Source of the DNA: a virus
DNA: 43,788 bases
IMG/VR virus record: IMGVR_UViG_3300045988_075868
Strand: one strand, 5' to 3'
Shown: positions 21,481 to 42,955 of the stretch, piece by piece
Position numbering within the stretch: position 1 is the first letter of the stretch
How the letters are laid out: the number at the start of each line of letters is the position of its first letter
Notes under the pieces: model-generated
What the model was told of the DNA's origin: nothing
Database searches by the model: none
What the model saw: only the letters and a program-made list of their open reading frames with translations
Translations under genes and position numbers: made by a program

Positions 21481-22101
21481 CCCGCAACGAGGCACGGCAT
21501 ATATACCCCTTCTGGGGTATGTTGCGGGTTTGGTCAGGCTTTCCGGAGGCCTGCTCTGTAAGGACTTGCGTCCTGGTGCCACCGCCCGCCTCATACGGCG
21601 AGGAGCGGCATATGTGCGCTTCCCGCTTAATTGTCACACCCTTATGTGCGGCTGGTCATTCCGTCCTGGTACACATAAGGCAGTTTTCAGCGGGATAGCG
21701 CCGGGGCAGGTCATAGCTGCCGCCGCTTCCGCCTCCATGACAGGCGGGTGCCCTTTACCCTTCTCCGGTGCATAATTAGGCACTGTAAGCCCCCGGTATA
21801 GTGTCTTTCCACAGTCATAGGAACCTGCAAGATTTGAACTTGCGACCTCTACCCCTTTCGGTTAAGTGACGGATTCCGCCCCGTCCCAGGTTCCGCATGC
21901 CCCCGTCTTTCCGGGGTGTCAGCTCCTTGGCCTTTGGAGCAAGCTTCATTTAGTGCCCGCAAGGGGCAATGTTTCGCCGCATGGAGGGTGCGACCCTCCG
22001 GCCCGGATGTGCGGCGTATGTACCCCGGCAAGCGCCGGGGTTGAGGAGGAAATAGAAGAAGCGAATGGGAGCGCAGGGGCATACGCTCCCACACTCCCAT
22101 T
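21481..22101 (-). ncRNA. Candidate large structured non-coding RNA (possibly ROOL/GOLLD-like) or a highly structured late-operon leader
   Basis: No credible CDS across 733 bp. Many GC-rich nested helices are present (coordinates in the findings). An embedded tRNA-like element fixes the strand. Boundaries are approximate. Confidence 0.5.
21819..21894 (-). ncRNA. tRNA-like cloverleaf with an aberrant anticodon arm (probably non-decoding)
   Basis: Minus-strand features: acceptor GGAACCT/AGGTTCC (7 bp), D arm GACG-GGGCGGAATC-CGTC, T arm GCAAG-TTCAAAT-CTTGC. The anticodon region forms only an imperfect helix or a CC-GAAA-GG hairpin, has no U33, has an 8-nt variable region, and has no encoded CCA. 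Confidence 0.55.
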
Positions 22102-36466: not shown

Positions 36467-36598
36467 CCCCCTAGAAGTAGCGATTTTCTGGACTTACTTT
36501 TATGCTATCACAATATTTCGCTACTGTCAATAGGAAATCACGAAATTCTTGACTTTTGTTTTTTCGTGTGATATGCTCATGTCAAAGAAGGTGATTAT
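36467..36598. promoter_or_regulatory. Genetic switch region with divergent promoters and ATTTCG/CGAAAT repeats
   Basis: Plus strand has TTGACT-17-TATGCT (36549-36577, TG-extended). Minus strand has TTGACA-17-TAGCAT (reverse complement of 36505-36533). AGTAGCGA/TCGCTACT inverted arms are present. Confidence 0.55.
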
Positions 36599-37502: not shown

Positions 37503-37895
37503 GTGCCGGAAAATTTCAATAAGCTATTTTGCGTCGGAGAGTATGTTACAGAGTTCAATTTAGCAACCGGACAGCATCTTCCTTGTGGGCCAATTTACCA
37601 ATCTTATGGTCTAATGGCACATATTCAGAAAAGACACCCCTCCGAGGTTTCAAATCTATCTTATGTGCCGGAGATCATATCTTCTCCTGATTATATTGGA
37701 AAGCACCCTAAAGAGCCGGATAGTATTGAACTAGTGAAAATTTTGAGCGGCAACATAATGGTCTGTATAAAATTGGATAGGGATGAAAATTACCTGTTTG
37801 TTGCAAGTGTTTTCGAGATTAGTGAAGGAAAATTGAAAAACCGCATTAACAGTGGGAGATTAAAAAAGTTGACAAATCACAAAATGTGTGATTAA
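37503..37895 (+). CDS. PBECR-like (Barnase-EndoU-ColicinE5/D-RelE-like) putative nuclease
   Basis: AHIQKRHPSEV...YVPEIISSPDYIGKHPKEPDSIELVK...VASVFEIS fits my recollection of the PBECR pattern. GTG start after GAGGGGGAAAG. Low GC. Confidence 0.45.
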   Translation: MPENFNKLFCVGEYVTEFNLATGQHLPCGPIYQSYGLMAHIQKRHPSEVSNLSYVPEIISSPDYIGKHPKEPDSIELVKILSGNIMVCIKLDRDENYLFVASVFEISEGKLKNRINSGRLKKLTNHKMCD

Positions 37896-38071
37896 ATGAA
37901 GTTGCAAAAGCATAGACTGTATTGGGTGTTGAGGTCGGAAATGGCTCCCGACACTCCCTTGTATGAGGATAGAACGGGCATCTATCACCTATATGGGTAA
38001 TGCGTGAGTGCCGACACGCCGCAAGGGAACCTGAGATGTAGGATACGCCGCCCTACCAACATCCAAAACAC

Positions 38072-38216: not shown

Positions 38217-39443
38217 TCAAACCTGTTCTGTATCGCTTCTTGCGATATAGTCGTCTAATTCATTTAGATTGATTGAATAGTAATTTGTCTTTCCACGCCT
38301 CGATTTTACAAGTAGATTTTGTGGTATTTGCTCTAACTTGCGTGTCAATGTTGTGCGACTAAGCATTGCATGTTTCAGCACTACATCAGTTGATACACCA
38401 AATTCAGAGAAAAGCGCCGCTTGGATCAGAAGGCTATAGATTTCTCCCAGTTTTTCATCCTTCCCAGCGCACAGATCCTCTATTCTCTGCAAATACCTGT
38501 TTAATCGGACAAGCCCTTCCTGCAAGCTTTCCTTCAGCTTTTCCACTGATGTTTTTATTATATTTAAGAACATCGTTAGAAACGGCGTCAAATCCCCGAG
38601 GTTTACTTGGTCGTTGCATACAGTAAACGCTTTGTAGTAGTCATTGATATTTTCCTTTATTGTATATGAAAGCCGATAGCCTGTCACCGGAACTAACTCC
38701 TGCGAGAGAAGATAGCTACATATAAAGCGGCCAAGTCTTCCGTTCCCATCATAAAACGGATGGATATACTCAATCAAATAGTGAAAAATTGCAATCCTGC
38801 AAAGCGCTTCATGAGATTCGTCATGTAAAAATATAAGCGCCTTTTCCATGGATTGAATTATACTTTCTTCCGGGTATACCCCCTTATGAATCTCCTTCTG
38901 GCTCGGACTATAAATGCTCACCGACTCTTTGCGAAACCACTTCCCGTCTGGTAGGTTATCTGGATTCTCTTCTTCCACTTCTGCAAGCACCAGCTCATCG
39001 TAGATCGCCCTAATGTCCTGGCAGCTTTCAATGGGGATTTCTTCTTTTGTCATCAGCATGTCATACTTCTGAACTAATCCGAAAAAACGCTTCCCTTTGC
39101 TTTTTTCCTGCAACTCATCCAGAATATCGCTAATTTCCTTTCTGGTGCTCCGAACACCTTCTATGCTGTTAGTCAACACAATCTCATCTATGAGACATCT
39201 CCTAGAAAACTGACTAATAGCCGCACCAGGCAGTATGGAGCAGAGATTTGAAACAGCAGTGTTCATGCGCAAAATATCTGTAATCATATGGTTGATCTCC
39301 GGCGTTTGAATGAAAAATGCATTGTTTCCATTAACTTGGAAATCTAAATGTATCGCATATTCACTTTGATACCGTTTTTCATATAACGCTTTATACGCTT
39401 CCTTGTCTTTGTAATACAGCTCTGATAAATTTTGATATCCCAT
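38217..39443 (-). CDS. Fic-domain protein (AMPylase family, class II inhibitory motif) with a C-terminal winged-helix-like region
   Basis: Fic motif HPFYDGNGRLGR and N-terminal inhibitory-type motif TNSIEG. GGAGGTG lies 6 nt before the ATG. Low GC. Confidence 0.85.
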   Translation of the reverse strand: MGYQNLSELYYKDKEAYKALYEKRYQSEYAIHLDFQVNGNNAFFIQTPEINHMITDILRMNTAVSNLCSILPGAAISQFSRRCLIDEIVLTNSIEGVRSTRKEISDILDELQEKSKGKRFFGLVQKYDMLMTKEEIPIESCQDIRAIYDELVLAEVEEENPDNLPDGKWFRKESVSIYSPSQKEIHKGVYPEESIIQSMEKALIFLHDESHEALCRIAIFHYLIEYIHPFYDGNGRLGRFICSYLLSQELVPVTGYRLSYTIKENINDYYKAFTVCNDQVNLGDLTPFLTMFLNIIKTSVEKLKESLQEGLVRLNRYLQRIEDLCAGKDEKLGEIYSLLIQAALFSEFGVSTDVVLKHAMLSRTTLTRKLEQIPQNLLVKSRRGKTNYYSINLNELDDYIARSDTEQV

Positions 39444-39609: not shown

Positions 39610-39698
39610 GCTACCAACACCGAGACAGGGGAACAAAATAAAAACGCCCCCAGTGCTACCAACACCGAGGGCGGGCCGTAGATGCTACCAACATCGAC
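39610..39698 (+). repeat. Three direct copies of GCTACCAACA(C/T)CGA(G/C) upstream of int
   Basis: Copies at 39610-39624, 39655-39669 and 39684-39698. The first two are flanked by complementary C-rich and G-rich runs. A partial fourth copy CTACCAACATC lies at 38053-38063. Confidence 0.7.
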
Positions 39699-39795
39699 GG
39701 TAAGCAAAGCACCCCAAACTACTAGATCCAAGGCACCTTTGCGCCCTCATTGTATCATACATAGGTACGCTGGTGCAAGAGAAAGGAGAAAAAAC

Positions 39796-40881
39796 ATGGC
39801 CACTGCTAAACAGCTTCCCTCCGGCTCCTGGAGATGCCAAGTCTATGCTGGCACCGCACCTGACGGAAAACGTCAGTACCGTTCTTTCACTGCCTATACT
39901 AAGAAGGAAGCGGAGTATGCCGCCCTGGAGTGGCAGCTCCACTACCGGGAAATATCTAGGGACTCTTCTAATATGACCTTAGCCGAGGCGATGGAGCGAT
40001 ATCTGGCCTCTAAAGACAGTATATTGTCACCATCGACCGTCAGGGGCTATGACATCATACGCAGGAGGCACCTGCAAGGGCTCATGCAAATCCGCCTAAA
40101 TCGATTGACACCATCTATGATCCAGGAAGCATTCAATATAGAGAGCAAGCCCTATACTGATAGTCAGGGCCGAGTCCATATGCCCACCCCAAAGTCTGTA
40201 CATAATATTCATGGGTTCTTTTCTGCTGTTCTACGGGAGTATCACCCAGCTTTGCGTCTAAATATCACCCTTCCGCAAAAGGAATTGAACGAGCAGCAAT
40301 ACTTAGAGCCTGAGCAGGTAGGTAAGCTTTTACGGGCAATCAAAGGATCAGAAATGGAAGTCCCTATACTTTTGGCACTCTGGCTTAGTCTTCGATCTTC
40401 TGAAGTCACAGGTCTGACCTGGAAATATGTAGACTTTACACACAATACTATTACGGTTCGTCAAGCCAGAGTAAGGAATAAAGAAAATCAGTGGGTCGAA
40501 AAGTCTACCAAAACGACCTGCTCCACACGCACTCTCCATGCGCCTGAGTATATCATGGAACTGCTAAAGGCCAGCAAAGGCAATGATGGCCCAGAGGATC
40601 ATGTAGTCAAAATCAAAGGAAATTGTTTACTTCAAAGGCTCAAAACAATCCTGCGCAAAAATAATCTTCCTCTTATCCGCTTTCATGATCTGCGGCATAC
40701 CAATTGCAGTTTAATGAGTGCTCTTGGGGTACCAGAAAGATATATGATGGCCCGCGGTGGCTGGTCAAGTCCGCGGGTTATGCGCTCGGTGTATGACCAT
40801 ACGATGCGTAGTAAACAGAATGAGGTCGACCAAAAAATCGATAGATGTTTTTACCAGCTTATGAAAGAGGAGGACGCCTGA
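39796..40881 (+). CDS. int: Tyrosine integrase
   Basis: RFHDLRHT and GGWSSPRVMRSVYDHT (catalytic Tyr region). Start moved to ATG 39796, preceded by AAAGGAG. Confidence 0.9.
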   Translation: MATAKQLPSGSWRCQVYAGTAPDGKRQYRSFTAYTKKEAEYAALEWQLHYREISRDSSNMTLAEAMERYLASKDSILSPSTVRGYDIIRRRHLQGLMQIRLNRLTPSMIQEAFNIESKPYTDSQGRVHMPTPKSVHNIHGFFSAVLREYHPALRLNITLPQKELNEQQYLEPEQVGKLLRAIKGSEMEVPILLALWLSLRSSEVTGLTWKYVDFTHNTITVRQARVRNKENQWVEKSTKTTCSTRTLHAPEYIMELLKASKGNDGPEDHVVKIKGNCLLQRLKTILRKNNLPLIRFHDLRHTNCSLMSALGVPERYMMARGGWSSPRVMRSVYDHTMRSKQNEVDQKIDRCFYQLMKEEDA

Positions 40882-41034
40882 TTTTAATCGCCCCCCTATC
40901 AATCTGTGTGATATTTCGTGTTGCATGATTGTTCGGCGTGTGATATTTACTTGCCTTTTTTCTCGTTAGAGTGTAAAATATGGAAAAAAGCAAGGGAGGG
41001 AGCAATCACCAAATCCCTTGTGCCGCAACGTTTT

Positions 41035-41107
41035 CAGGAAAAATGAAGAAACCAGGCCTTTTCAGACCTGGTTCTTCTTGGTGCGCGAGGCGGGAGTCGA
41101 ACCCGCC
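41035..41107 (-). other. attP core region: 3' end of a tRNA gene (T arm, acceptor 3' strand and CCA) with its own terminator
   Basis: Minus strand 41107->41079 reads GGCGGGTTCGACTCCCGCCTCGCGCACCA (T stem GCGGG/CCCGC, loop TTCGACT, acceptor CTCGCGC, discriminator A, CCA). It is followed by hairpin GAAGAACCAGG...CCTGGTTTCTTC and ATTTTT. No matching 5' half (GCGCGAG) lies upstream, so this is a fragment. Confidence 0.7.
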
Positions 41108-41152: not shown

Positions 41153-41161
41153 TGGTATAAT
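41153..41161 (+). promoter_or_regulatory. Extended -10 promoter element (TGgTATAAT) upstream of the Spo0A_C gene
   Basis: TGGTATAAT at 41153-41161. The -35 element is weak. Confidence 0.4.
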
Positions 41162-41276
41162 TGTGTTGCATCTTGTGTGATATAGCAAAAAAATCGAGAG
41201 GCCCGCTAAGACAATGCCGCGGACCTCCCCAGAGGCATGGCGTATCCCGCATAAAGATAGAAAGGATTGAAACGTC

Positions 41277-41651
41277 ATGCCTATAACCATGGACCCTATA
41301 CAGGAATGTAGCGATTTGCACATTGTTGTAGAGCGAACTCTACGCCGCCTCCGAATCAGCGGAAAGTTGAAAGGTTTTCGCTTCTTGAGGTATGCCCTTA
41401 CAGTAACCGTAAAAGACCCTTACCGGACTGATCTTATCACGAAAGTTCTTTACCCCGAAATAGCCGCAGAATTTAGTGATAAAGATACCAGGGTCGAGCG
41501 GGCAATCCGTACTGCGATTTGCGCCTGCTGGGACAGCTACGGCAGAGATGAACTGAATAAGATGGCGGGCTATACCTTAGAAAAGCGCCCCACAAACTTA
41601 GAGTTTATTGACTTGGTAGCAGCATATATTCGTTACATCCTGGACAGGTAA
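41277..41651 (+). CDS. Stand-alone Spo0A C-terminal (DNA-binding effector) domain protein, no receiver domain
   Basis: ITKVLYPEIAAEF..TRVERAIRTAICACWDSYG...KRPTNLEFIDLVAAYIR aligns with B. subtilis Spo0A ITKVLYPDIAKKF..SRVERAIRHAIEVAWSRGN...KPTNSEFIAMVADKLR. Confidence 0.85.
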   Translation: MPITMDPIQECSDLHIVVERTLRRLRISGKLKGFRFLRYALTVTVKDPYRTDLITKVLYPEIAAEFSDKDTRVERAIRTAICACWDSYGRDELNKMAGYTLEKRPTNLEFIDLVAAYIRYILDR

Positions 41652-41658
41652 CCACTGG

Positions 41659-41690
41659 CCGGACAGGAGGATTCTCCTGTCCGGTTCTTC
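41659..41690. terminator. Bidirectional terminator (11-bp stem CCGGACAGGAG/CTCCTGTCCGG)
   Basis: Lies between convergent genes 41277..41651 (+) and 41692..41940 (-). T-rich 3' flank. Confidence 0.75.
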
Positions 41691-41691
41691 T

Positions 41692-41940
41692 TTATGCCTG
41701 CCAATGGTATCCACAGGTCTGACATACCCACATAGATTTATGTATAATTTTAGTTTTGTATTTACGAGGGGCAAAAATCTTAGCTATCAATGCAAGTACA
41801 GTAAAACAACACCATTTAACTGGAAGCCACCACCAACCAATACAAATCCACCAGAAAATGCCACGGTGTTTGGTAAGTAACTGCGTTTCCGATACCATTT
41901 GAACATTAATACTATTACTTCCACATTTTGGGCAAACCAT
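41692..41940 (-). CDS. Zinc-ribbon membrane protein (CPKCG...CQTCG flanking a Trp-rich TM hairpin)
   Basis: GGAGGAGTGAAGG precedes the ATG. The minus-strand promoter is TTGACA-18-TATTAT (reverse complement of about 41998-42027). Confidence 0.6.
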   Translation of the reverse strand: MVCPKCGSNSINVQMVSETQLLTKHRGIFWWICIGWWWLPVKWCCFTVLALIAKIFAPRKYKTKIIHKSMWVCQTCGYHWQA

Positions 41941-42484: not shown

Positions 42485-42955
42485 ATGCCAATGTCAGCGA
42501 CCGTTGTTTGCAACAATATTTTGAAGCGCGCATTTTCAGAAAGTGTTGCTGTTTCTCCCATGAAATTACAGAAATTACTGTATTTTGTAAGCTGTGAATA
42601 TGTCAAGGCTACTGGTAACGATCTTTTTTCGGAAGATTTTGGCGTGTGGCAGTATGGCCCCGTTCTCCCTACCGTATATGATGAGTTTAAATCCTTTAAG
42701 AGCACTCCCATCAATAAATATTCTACAGATGCAAACGGTATAGCGTATGCCATTGATGAAGATAGTGCTCCAAATCTAAAAACTGCTATTGTTCGAATTT
42801 GGAACAGTTTCAAGTTTTTTGACGGAGTGACATTATCAAAAATTACACACAAAGATGGCTCTGGCTGGTCAAACGCATTTTGCCAACATCGCTCCAAAAT
42901 TACAACTGAGGATATGAGGTCGGATAATACATATGGGGAATATCTGCTCACCTAA
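42485..42955 (+). CDS. Panacea-domain (DUF4065, SocA/GepA-like) antitoxin-type protein
   Basis: SPMKLQKLLYFVSCEYVKATGNDLFSEDFGVWQYGPVLPTVYDEFK matches the DUF4065 core (LQKLLYy...g.pLf.e.feAW.yGPV.p.vY). Confidence 0.75.
   Translation: MPMSATVVCNNILKRAFSESVAVSPMKLQKLLYFVSCEYVKATGNDLFSEDFGVWQYGPVLPTVYDEFKSFKSTPINKYSTDANGIAYAIDEDSAPNLKTAIVRIWNSFKFFDGVTLSKITHKDGSGWSNAFCQHRSKITTEDMRSDNTYGEYLLT

What the first reader, a model, noticed from the sequence alone, without database searches (positions are those of the whole stretch)
41153..41690. Phage-encoded stand-alone Spo0A effector domain without a phospho-receiver
The 124-aa product aligns along its whole length with the C-terminal DNA-binding/activation domain of Spo0A, the master regulator of sporulation (ITKVLYPEIA, RVERAIRTAI, RPTNLEFI). 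The N-terminal receiver domain is missing entirely.

In B. subtilis, removal of the receiver domain is known to make the C-terminal domain constitutively active in DNA binding. A prophage gene of this kind, with its own TG-extended -10 element and terminator next to attP, could activate 0A-box promoters or occupy them competitively. It may therefore reprogram host sporulation or stationary-phase decisions. It also points to an endospore-forming Firmicutes host.
Basis: partly seen in the sequence, partly recalled or inferred. Interest (0 to 1): 0.7.

Follow-up and report, generated by a model that had tools for sequence, protein, structure and literature searches.

The report
Phage Spo0A DNA-binding domain gene
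A gut-bacterial prophage carries a small gene for only the DNA-binding half of the sporulation master switch Spo0A; this kind of gene is already described but untested, and here it seems built to bind DNA without activating genes and is kept under tight translational control by a conserved RNA hairpin.

Summary
ORF 41277-41651 (+) encodes a 124-aa protein that is a complete Spo0A_C domain (Pfam 102 bits; predicted fold matches Spo0A structures 1LQ1/1FC3). No receiver domain is encoded anywhere in the window. The window is a complete circular temperate phage. An identical gene lies in a prophage of Muriventricola aceti H5_61 (Oscillospiraceae), as the first gene inside one prophage end, next to a tRNA-type attP.

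It is not new. The exact protein is in GenBank, a one-residue variant there is named Spo0A C-terminal domain, and Schwartz et al. (mBio 2023) described receiver-less spo0A genes in gut phages. No experiment was found.

Three points appear to be unreported:
- The gene belongs to a large stand-alone clade. It keeps the Spo0A recognition-helix triad but replaces residues that are near-invariant in full-length Spo0A (F236A, D258A, a 3-aa deletion). This favours occupying or repressing sites over activating transcription.
- A conserved, covarying 5' leader RNA (41196-41279) pairs the ribosome-binding site and the AUG, so expression is probably gated rather than constitutive.
- The gene repeatedly sits at prophage ends beside unrelated integrases.

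Canonical 0A boxes are not enriched in the phage. Whether the host sporulates is undocumented.

The parts
39682..40881 (+). Tyrosine integrase (context). In the prophage it lies at the opposite end from the Spo0A_C gene.
   Evidence: Pfam Phage_integrase PF00589, E 3.4e-12
40906..40946 (+). attP P-arm repeats: GTGTGATAT at 40906 and 40938, GTGTTGCAT at 40918. Putative arm-type integrase sites.
   Evidence: GTGTGATAT occurs 4 times against 0.31 expected. GTGTTGCAT occurs twice against 0.26 expected. Five of the six copies flank the att core. Their function is inferred.
41049..41074 (-). Terminator-like hairpin that follows the tRNA 3' fragment on the minus strand.
   Evidence: Its position relative to the tRNA fragment was read.
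41079..41107 (-). attP core: the 3' part of a tRNA (T-arm, acceptor strand, CCA). This is the prophage/host junction in M. aceti.
   Evidence: Reverse complement reads GGCGGGTTCGACTCCCGCCTCGCGCACCA. Identity with M. aceti contig NZ_JAOQKF010000002.1 starts at 41079. No complete tRNA is called here. The inner limit of the core is not determined.
41153..41161 (+). Extended -10 promoter element TGgTATAAT with a weak -35.
   Evidence: Read from the sequence. Not called by the consensus scan. Untested.
41163..41183 (+). attP P'-arm repeats GTGTTGCAT and GTGTGATAT, directly downstream of the -10.
   Evidence: A related TGTGTTGYAT-N4-GTGTGATAT element lies upstream of the leader in L015, L021 and L026.
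41196..41279 (+). Conserved 5' leader RNA.
- P1: GC-rich hairpin, 41198-41206 paired with 41219-41227.
- P2: 41236-41243 (CAUGGCGU) paired with 41272-41279 (ACGUCAUG, which includes the start codon).
- P3: 41244-41247 (AUCC) paired with 41264-41267 (the GGAU of the Shine-Dalgarno).
- A purine-rich apical loop.
   Evidence: RNAalifold predicts P2 with compensatory changes. All 13 distinct leaders fold on their own to the same architecture; z is -3 to -6.6 for 11 of them, -1.7 and -0.6 for L005 and L026. Covariance model R1 gives 33 full-length hits (32-92 bits, plus two partial ones), each upstream of a Spo0A_C ORF on the gene strand and ending at or a few tens of bases before the listed protein match, in 606 kb. 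Nothing exceeds 19 bits in an 872-kb control. 83% of cells are paired against 34-47% for slid partners, and 8 pairs show double changes, reached by 0/500 shuffles. In P2+P3 there are 29 G.U cells against 3 A.C cells. No Rfam family matches.
41277..41651 (+). CDS: 124-aa stand-alone Spo0A_C protein (six-helix HTH domain, no receiver).
   Evidence: The exact protein is in GenBank (SCI78653.1, DAQ65495.1) and was seen on 736 contigs.
41657..41686 (+). Terminator-like hairpin (13-bp stem, 8 GC pairs) between the convergent Spo0A_C gene and the Zn-ribbon membrane protein gene.

Best explanation
This is an accessory ('moron'-type) gene of a temperate siphovirus-like phage of Muriventricola aceti and related Oscillospiraceae.

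Shown: it encodes a receiver-less paralogue of the Spo0A effector domain. The protein belongs to a large clade of ~110-135-aa stand-alone proteins that turn up repeatedly in prophages and other mobile elements.

Inferred:
1. The helix-turn-helix and the conserved recognition-helix triad (equivalents of E213, R214, R217) are intact. The protein therefore most likely binds Spo0A-box-like DNA (TGTCGAA type) without needing phosphorylation.
2. The surfaces that full-length Spo0A conserves for contacting sigma factors are replaced. It most likely occupies such sites without activating transcription, so it would act as a competitor or repressor that damps or rewires the host Spo0A regulon in lysogens. 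That regulon covers entry into sporulation where the host can sporulate, and otherwise stationary-phase programmes.
3. Expression is not simply constitutive. The mRNA starts with a conserved leader whose long hairpin pairs the Shine-Dalgarno sequence and the AUG. Translation should be off until something opens or processes the leader. That trigger is unknown.
For: Domain identity, fold and lack of a receiver.

DNA-binding residues kept: ITKVLYPEIA and RVERAIRTAI differ from B. subtilis Spo0A at D200E, K203A and H218T. The E-R-R triad is present in 38/38 full-length-like and 119/129 stand-alone domains.

Activation-surface positions replaced:
- Phe236 is present in 97% of full-length-like proteins and is Ala in 79% of stand-alone ones.
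- Asp258 is 97% against Phe/Ala.
- A deletion of positions 242-244 is found in 93-97% of stand-alone proteins.
- Ala254 becomes Asp in 85%.
- 119/130 stand-alone proteins carry the triple signature, against 35/38 full-length-like with the canonical state.
- Five of eight full-length-like controls pass TIGR02875 and two more score 195-197 bits.

Precedents:
- The isolated Spo0A DNA-binding domain binds its targets without phosphorylation (PMC3485338).
- A257V/E and C-terminal deletions abolish sporulation but keep abrB repression (PMC9195935).

Lysogeny-type placement:
- It is the first gene inside the prophage end in M. aceti, with its own -10 and terminator.
- Homologues sit at prophage ends or beside tyrosine or large serine recombinases in L003, L005, L009, L015, L016, L017-20, L021-23 and L026.

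Leader RNA.

The gene is maintained: the exact protein is found on 736 contigs.
Against: - There is no experimental data on any member of this clade.
- Canonical 0A boxes are not enriched in the phage: 3 found against 4.45 expected. The host regulon could not be examined.
- The recognition helix has H218->T, and His is invariant in full-length Spo0A, so specificity may have shifted.
- The activation-surface assignment rests on B. subtilis genetics recalled from the literature, not on anything tested here.
- The host is not known to sporulate.
- Some phages carry a second copy in an early operon, and many homologues are tandem multi-domain proteins. Both hint at roles unrelated to host sporulation.
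- The stand-alone set was collected by similarity to the query, so the signature describes the query's clade, not every stand-alone Spo0A_C protein.
Confidence: 0.42

Rival explanations
1. Phage-internal regulator. The protein works on phage DNA and merely shares ancestry with Spo0A. Possible roles are lysis-lysogeny control, superinfection immunity, or an architectural or directionality factor at att.
For: - The gene recurs next to integrases of two unrelated families and next to att sites.
- L017/L020 carry a second, 105-aa copy inside the early operon.
- The domain is used widely outside Spo0A, including in tandem arrays.
- The att core contains TTCGACT, a 6/7 match to the 0A-box complement (read).
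- The family occurs in lineages not known to sporulate.
Against: - There is no excess of TGTCGAA in the phage and none near the early or CI promoters.
- The gene is a separate unit outside the lytic operons.
- The att sites of homologues differ (tRNA in some, feoB in others), so a common att-binding role is unlikely.
- The TTCGAC match lies in a generic tRNA T-arm and is probably a coincidence.
- There is no homology to known excisionases.
Confidence: 0.28
2. Constitutive activator. Without a receiver, the domain switches on Spo0A-activated promoters and forces or accelerates sporulation, trapping the prophage in spores.
For: - Receiver-less Spo0A binds its targets without phosphorylation.
- Constitutively active receiver-deletion alleles such as sad67 exist in B. 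subtilis (literature, from memory).
- Schwartz et al. raise activation or repression as equal possibilities.
Against: - Positions near-invariant in full-length Spo0A and linked to sigma-factor contact are replaced across the clade.
- Translation is held off by the leader.
Confidence: 0.12
3. Decaying or neutral passenger: a captured fragment of a host spo0A gene with no function.
For: It lies in a hypervariable accessory region. The stretch from 42347 to 449 is replaced in close relatives.
Against: - The ORF is intact and the model is high-confidence.
- 913 clusters of relatives were found, with strong conservation of DNA-contact residues.
- The exact protein is on 736 contigs.
- The leader RNA is conserved and covaries.
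- Identity to full-length Spo0A is only 41% at the median, against up to 75% within the stand-alone clade. This indicates an old, separately evolving lineage rather than a recent fragment.
Confidence: 0.03

Closest known systems
Spo0A effector (C-terminal) domain of Bacillus (PDB 1LQ1, 1FC3; Pfam PF08769)
   Same: Same six-helix fold (TM up to 0.92). Same helix-turn-helix. Recognition helix RVERAIRxAI with the E/R/R triad.
   Different: No receiver domain or linker. H218T. The helix E region and the C-terminal helix differ at positions that are near-invariant in true Spo0A (G227Y, I229R, F236A, D258A, A254D). Three residues are deleted after helix E.
Phage-carried truncated spo0A homologues of human-gut viromes (Schwartz et al., mBio 2023, PMC10294663)
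   Same: Exactly this kind of gene: effector domain only, in gut phages of Bacillota, proposed to act independently of host signals.
   Different: That paper reports 29 sequences and an alignment. As far as the text read here shows, it does not report the residue signature, the prophage-end placement, the leader RNA or a cultivated lysogen. Whether this phage is in their set is unknown.
B. subtilis Spo0A separation-of-function alleles (A257V/E, deletion of the last 15 residues) and the isolated Spo0A-DBD
   Same: These proteins still bind DNA and repress abrB but cannot activate stage II promoters. The isolated DBD binds DNA without phosphorylation. This is the working model for the phage protein.
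   Different: They are laboratory mutants of a chromosomal regulator. The phage protein is a natural, long-diverged paralogue and is untested.
Phage-encoded sporulation sigma factors (sigF/sigG-like; Schwartz, Lehmkuhl and Lennon 2022, cited)
   Same: A phage copy of a sporulation transcription regulator. In that case expression in the host was shown to lower spore yield.
   Different: A different protein family and step. Those have experimental support and this one has none.
phi29/Nf control by host Spo0A through 0A boxes in the phage genome (PMC2731898, listed)
   Same: Links phage development to Spo0A-box recognition.
   Different: There the host protein binds boxes in the phage. Here the phage encodes the binder, and its own genome has no excess of boxes.
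Leaders that sequester the Shine-Dalgarno sequence and start codon (type I toxin mRNAs such as hok/tisB, RNA thermometers, translational riboswitches; general knowledge)
   Same: A stable hairpin occludes the SD and AUG, and the structure is conserved with compensatory changes.
   Different: It matches no Rfam family. It is predicted to stay closed from 25 to 55 C, so it is not thermometer-like. No ligand pocket or trigger has been identified.

Membership tests
Spo0A_C domain family (Pfam PF08769) | Significant full-length match to the family HMM above the curated threshold | tested here: met
   101.9 bits against a cut-off of 25, model positions 1-104 of 104
Spo0A_C domain family (Pfam PF08769) | Six-helix fold with helix-turn-helix, as in 1FC3/1LQ1 | tested here: met
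   AF2 pLDDT 90.5 with six helices. Foldseek TM 0.75-0.92 to 1lq1/1fc3 and no other match with E<1.
Spo0A_C domain family (Pfam PF08769) | Recognition-helix residues equivalent to E213, R214 and R217 | tested here: met
   E74, R75 and R78 are present. Actual DNA binding was not tested.
Bona fide Spo0A response regulator (NCBIfam TIGR02875 equivalog) | N-terminal receiver domain with a phospho-accepting Asp | tested here: not met
   The protein is 124 aa and aligns only to model positions 143-256. No receiver-like ORF is found in the window at E<=10.
Bona fide Spo0A response regulator (NCBIfam TIGR02875 equivalog) | Score at or above the curated equivalog cut-off (200 bits) | tested here: not met
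   79.7 bits. Full-length controls score 135-273 bits, and 5 of 8 are above 200.
Bona fide Spo0A response regulator (NCBIfam TIGR02875 equivalog) | Conserved helix E and C-terminal positions (G227, F236, D258, and no gap at 242-244) | tested here: not met
   The query has Y, A, A and the deletion. 35/38 full-length-like proteins have the canonical state.
Phage-carried receiver-less spo0A (Schwartz et al. 2023) | Encoded in a phage genome, effector domain only | tested here: met
   Complete circular temperate phage with portal, terminase, capsid, tape measure, integrase and CI-like repressor. Domain content.
Moron / lysogenic-conversion gene | Independent promoter and terminator, located at a prophage end outside the lytic operons | tested here: met
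   Extended -10 at 41153-41161 and terminator at 41657-41686. It is the first gene inside the prophage junction in M. aceti. All evidence is in silico.
Moron / lysogenic-conversion gene | Expressed in the lysogen and changes the host phenotype | not testable with these tools
   No transcriptome or phenotype data are available. The leader hairpin predicts restricted translation.
Recombination directionality factor / excisionase | Homology to known Xis/RDF families, or a demonstrated effect on recombination | tested here: not met
   Only Spo0A_C is found in Pfam, NCBIfam and PHROGs. PHROG families 24603 and 37855 are of unknown function. The functional effect was not tested.
Anti-phage defence system component (PADLOC) | Match to a defence-system protein model | tested here: not met
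   No PADLOC hit for the Spo0A_C protein
Structured cis-regulatory leader RNA | Conserved secondary structure with compensatory base changes, specific to one gene context | tested here: met
   18 distinct sequences. 83% of cells are paired against 34-47% for slid partners. 8 pairs show double changes, reached by 0/500 shuffles. Hits occur only in front of Spo0A_C genes. Caveat: the alignment was fitted to the model.
Structured cis-regulatory leader RNA | A defined trigger (ligand, temperature, protein or sRNA) that switches the structure | tested here: inconclusive
   Temperature is ruled out in silico. No Rfam family matches. The trigger is unknown.

The most novel reading that the evidence does not exclude
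The phage gene is a natural 'anti-Spo0A'. It would be a DNA-binding-competent, activation-dead decoy whose translation is released only under a particular signal by a previously undescribed leader riboregulator. This would let the prophage conditionally veto the host's Spo0A-dependent developmental decision. In serine-integrase relatives attP lies inside the leader, so integration could additionally rewire the gene to a host promoter such as feoAB.
Probability: 0.2. Interest if true: 0.7.

Novelty: already known. Interest (0 to 1): 0.42.

Why it matters
Receiver-less spo0A genes in gut phages were reported in 2023 as candidates for viral control of bacterial dormancy, but nothing has been tested. 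This case offers a cultivated type strain, M. aceti H5_61, that carries an identical gene in a prophage. It also offers a specific, falsifiable prediction: the protein binds Spo0A-type sites but cannot activate, and so acts as a competitor. Finally, it offers a conserved leader RNA that must be taken into account in any expression experiment. If the prediction holds, prophages could tune spore formation, and therefore transmission and persistence, of abundant gut Clostridia.

Tried and rejected
- **0A boxes in the phage.** TGTCGAA occurs 3 times against 4.45 expected. TGNCGAA occurs 34 times against 22.9 expected, but 25 of the 34 matches are on the minus strand, which carries most of the genes, so this probably reflects coding composition. 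This gives no support for self-regulation through canonical boxes.
- **Second Spo0A_C or receiver ORF in the window.** None found.
- **Known RNA family for the leader.** None in Rfam.
- **RNA thermometer.** Rejected, because the SD and AUG stay paired from 25 to 55 C in silico.
- **DNA palindrome or operator instead of RNA.** Disfavoured, with 29 G.U cells against 3 A.C cells in P2+P3.
- **Defence-system membership.** No PADLOC hit.
- **Loose DNA pattern scan of IMG/VR for the leader.** It returned 120 chance hits and none had a Spo0A_C ORF. A tighter RBS-ATG pattern gave 6 hits, of which 3 were already-known Spo0A_C loci and 3 were chance.
- **Primary papers on the sigma-A activating region of Spo0A.** Not held in the library, so those residue assignments are marked as recalled.

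Full report
**1. The observation**

The ORF at 41277-41651 (+) encodes 124 residues. It matches Pfam Spo0A_C over the whole model, at 101.9 bits against a cut-off of 25. It aligns to the solved Spo0A C-domains 1LQ1 and 1FC3 at E about 1e-16. It reaches only 79.7 bits on the full-length Spo0A equivalog TIGR02875 (cut-off 200) and aligns only to that model's C-terminal half.

An AlphaFold2 model built on 63 relatives has pLDDT 90.5 and six helices. Its only meaningful PDB neighbours are 1LQ1 and 1FC3, with TM up to 0.92. An HMM made from the N-terminal halves of full-length Spo0A-like proteins finds nothing in any frame of the window.

**2. Genomic setting**

The window ends in a 99-bp exact repeat of its start, so it is a circular assembly of 43,689 bp. 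It carries tail, tape-measure, capsid, portal, terminase and primase/helicase genes on the minus strand. It also carries a lysogeny block with a CI-like HTH-S24 repressor, a PBECR3 nuclease, a Fic protein and a tyrosine integrase.

Just after the integrase lies the 3' part of a tRNA on the minus strand, followed by a terminator. A genome scan found an identical gene in Muriventricola aceti H5_61 (Oscillospiraceae). Similarity between that contig and the phage begins exactly at the CCA end of the tRNA fragment, at window 41079. This is attP. In the lysogen the Spo0A_C gene is the first gene inside one prophage end, reading inward, while the integrase lies at the other end.

The repeats GTGTGATAT and GTGTTGCAT flank the core on both sides, which suggests arm-type integrase sites. 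The P' pair lies directly after the TGgTATAAT extended -10 element of the gene. A 13-bp terminator hairpin follows the stop codon.

**3. Prior knowledge**

- Schwartz et al. (mBio 2023) reported that spo0A homologues in human-gut phage genomes are truncated to the effector domain. They suggested these may activate or repress sporulation without host signals, and reported no experiments.
- Pfam PF08769 was already noted as enriched on gut Firmicutes mobile elements.
- The exact 124-aa protein is in GenBank (SCI78653.1, DAQ65495.1) and was seen on 736 contigs. One deposited name is 'Stage 0 sporulation protein G [uncultured Flavonifractor sp.]'. [quoted passage not shown]]'.
- Literature searches found no functional follow-up.

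The finding as stated is therefore already known.

**4. What the protein looks like compared with real Spo0A**

A profile search returned 913 clusters. The best 120 are nearly all 109-187 aa with PF08769 alone. The 50%-identity library holds 5,423 homologues at E<=1e-3.

I aligned 299 domains from 262 fetched proteins to B. subtilis numbering. My remembered B. subtilis sequence reproduces the residues expected at known mutant positions, and its C-domain agrees with the aligned 1LQ1 residues shown.

*Kept in both groups.* The helix-turn-helix and recognition helix are conserved in full-length-like and stand-alone proteins. The E213/R214/R217 triad is present in 38/38 full-length-like and 119/129 stand-alone domains.

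*Changed in the stand-alone clade:*

| Position (B. subtilis) | Full-length-like | Stand-alone clade |
|---|---|---|
| H162 | His | Arg |
| A168 / H169 | Ala / His | Gly / Thr or Lys |
| F236 | Phe, 97% | Ala, 79% |
| 242-244 | present | deleted in 93-97% |
| G245 | Gly | Lys |
| A254 | Ala | Asp, 85% |
| D258 | Asp, 97% | Phe or Ala |

In all, 119/130 stand-alone proteins show the triple signature (deletion, non-F236, non-D258), against 35/38 full-length-like proteins with the canonical state. The query carries G227Y, I229R, S231E, S233N, F236A, V240L and D258A. Five of eight full-length-like controls pass TIGR02875, and two more score 195-197 bits.

From the literature as I recall it (Hatt and Youngman 1998; Buckner et al. 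1998; Kumar et al. 2004; not retrievable here), residues 227-240 form the sigma-A activating helix and 257-260 affect sigma-H-dependent activation. A held paper confirms that A257V/E or loss of the last 15 residues blocks sporulation while abrB repression persists. Another confirms that the isolated DNA-binding domain binds its targets without phosphorylation.

The simplest inference is a phosphorylation-independent binder of Spo0A-type sites that lacks the canonical activation surfaces.

Identity to full-length Spo0A is only 41% at the median, against up to 75% within the clade. This is an old, separately evolving lineage, not a freshly truncated host gene.

Caveat: the stand-alone sample was gathered by similarity to the query.

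**5. A conserved leader RNA**

Upstream regions of homologues that share only 45-75% protein identity, and that have unrelated flanks, are alike at the nucleotide level. RNAalifold pairs CAUGRCGY with RCGUCAUG, which includes the start codon, and shows compensatory changes.

Each of 13 distinct leaders folds on its own into the same architecture:
- a 5' GC-rich hairpin;
- a long hairpin in which AUCC pairs with the GGAU of the Shine-Dalgarno sequence and CAUG... pairs with ...CAUG at the start codon;
- a purine-rich apical loop.

For 11 of the 13, z-scores are -3 to -6.6; L005 and L026 give -1.7 and -0.6.

A covariance model finds 33 full-length hits of 32-92 bits, plus two partial ones. Each lies just upstream of a Spo0A_C ORF on the gene strand and ends at or a few tens of bases before the listed protein match, in 606 kb. 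Nothing exceeds 19 bits in 872 kb of control DNA.

On 18 distinct sequences, 83% of cells pair, against 34-47% for slid partners. Eight pairs show double-sided changes, which 0/500 shuffles reach. That alignment is fitted to the model. The unfitted alignment gave the same direction.

G.U cells outnumber A.C cells 29 to 3 in the two downstream helices, which argues for selection on the RNA rather than on a DNA palindrome. The SD and AUG remain paired from 25 to 55 C in silico, so this is not a thermometer. Rfam has no matching family.

The leader is found only in the close subfamily (about 45% identity or more). More distant stand-alone genes lack it. Translation of this gene is thus probably held off by default, which weakens the 'constitutively active' picture. 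The trigger is unknown.

**6. Context across relatives**

The gene recurs at prophage boundaries:
- immediately after a large serine recombinase (L003, L009);
- near a tyrosine integrase (L005, L015, L017-20, L026);
- as the first gene after host purL or feoB, next to the lysis module (L016, L022).

L024 is an exception, lying inside a myovirus-like genome.

This pattern fits a lysogeny-expressed accessory gene. It also keeps alive a rival in which the protein serves the phage's own regulation. One phage has a second copy in its early operon. However, the window holds only one copy and has no excess of canonical 0A boxes.

**7. Host inference**

The host is a Clostridia member. Its sporulation phenotype is listed as 'no data', and neighbouring genera are non-sporulating or variable. 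Spo0A is present in 32 of 42 non-spore-forming Clostridia surveyed by Galperin et al.. Non-sporulating Faecalibacterium expresses three Spo0A homologues. The gene therefore does not by itself indicate an endospore-forming host. Where the host does not sporulate, its target may be the non-sporulation part of a Spo0A regulon.

**8. Verdict**

The class and this exact protein are already in the literature and the databases.

The residue-level prediction (binder without activation surfaces), the leader RNA and the identification of a cultivated lysogen are the useful additions. All three are computational and need the experiments listed.

Noticed in passing
window 37924-38064 (+): A skipping-rope RNA motif (Rfam RF02924, 65.6 bits against a gathering score of 36.7). 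It lies between the PBECR3 nuclease gene and the Fic gene in the lysogeny block.
   Followed up: no
window 38217-39443 (-), 37503-37895 (+), 42485-42955 (+): The prophage carries defence or toxin-like accessory genes. They are a Fic protein matching the SoFic defence model (116 bits), a PBECR3 nuclease and a SocA/Panacea antitoxin-domain protein.
   Followed up: partly
proteins P0121, P0124, P0122, P0123 and 25 others: 29 of 262 fetched homologues consist of 2-4 complete Spo0A_C domains in tandem (for example 439 aa with four copies). The E/R/R triad is less conserved in these. I know of no description of such proteins.
   Followed up: partly
L021 6927-7003 versus L022 6928-7003 and L157: The same Spo0A_C gene has different DNA upstream, starting from inside the 5' arm of leader hairpin P1. 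In L022 it abuts a truncated host feoB, downstream of feoA. The serine-recombinase attP therefore seems to lie inside the leader, and integration would replace the gene's upstream promoter region.
   Followed up: partly
L017 12467-12784 and L020 5155-5472: Some phages encode two Spo0A_C genes. One (122 aa) is convergent with the tyrosine integrase. A shorter one (105 aa) sits in the early operon after an HTH_17 gene.
   Followed up: no
window 36566-36574 (+): A fourth copy of the att-arm repeat GTGTGATAT lies 25 bp upstream of the start of the CI-like repressor gene (36599). It may be chance, or it may link integrase binding to repressor expression.
   Followed up: no
window 21819-21894 (-): ARAGORN calls a tRNA-Arg(CCG) between the packaging and replication modules. 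Rfam's tRNA model does not reach its gathering score there.
   Followed up: no
window 41692-41940 (-) with promoter 42024-41995: An 82-aa zinc-ribbon membrane protein is convergent with the Spo0A_C gene and has a near-consensus TG-extended promoter (11/12). It is conserved in the M. aceti prophage. It may be another lysogeny-expressed moron.
   Followed up: no
window 42347 through the circular junction to 449: This segment (Panacea-domain gene, membrane protein, HTH_26) is replaced in the M. aceti prophage and in IMG/VR relative L001. This marks a hypervariable accessory region next to the conserved Spo0A_C unit.
   Followed up: no
L016 7885-7960, L014, L017, L005 upstream of the leader: Relatives integrated beside complete tRNA genes carry three or four direct repeats of TTTCGGGGCA-like (or TTAGGGTAT-like) motifs between the tRNA end and the leader. 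These are presumably arm-type sites of a different integrase.
   Followed up: no
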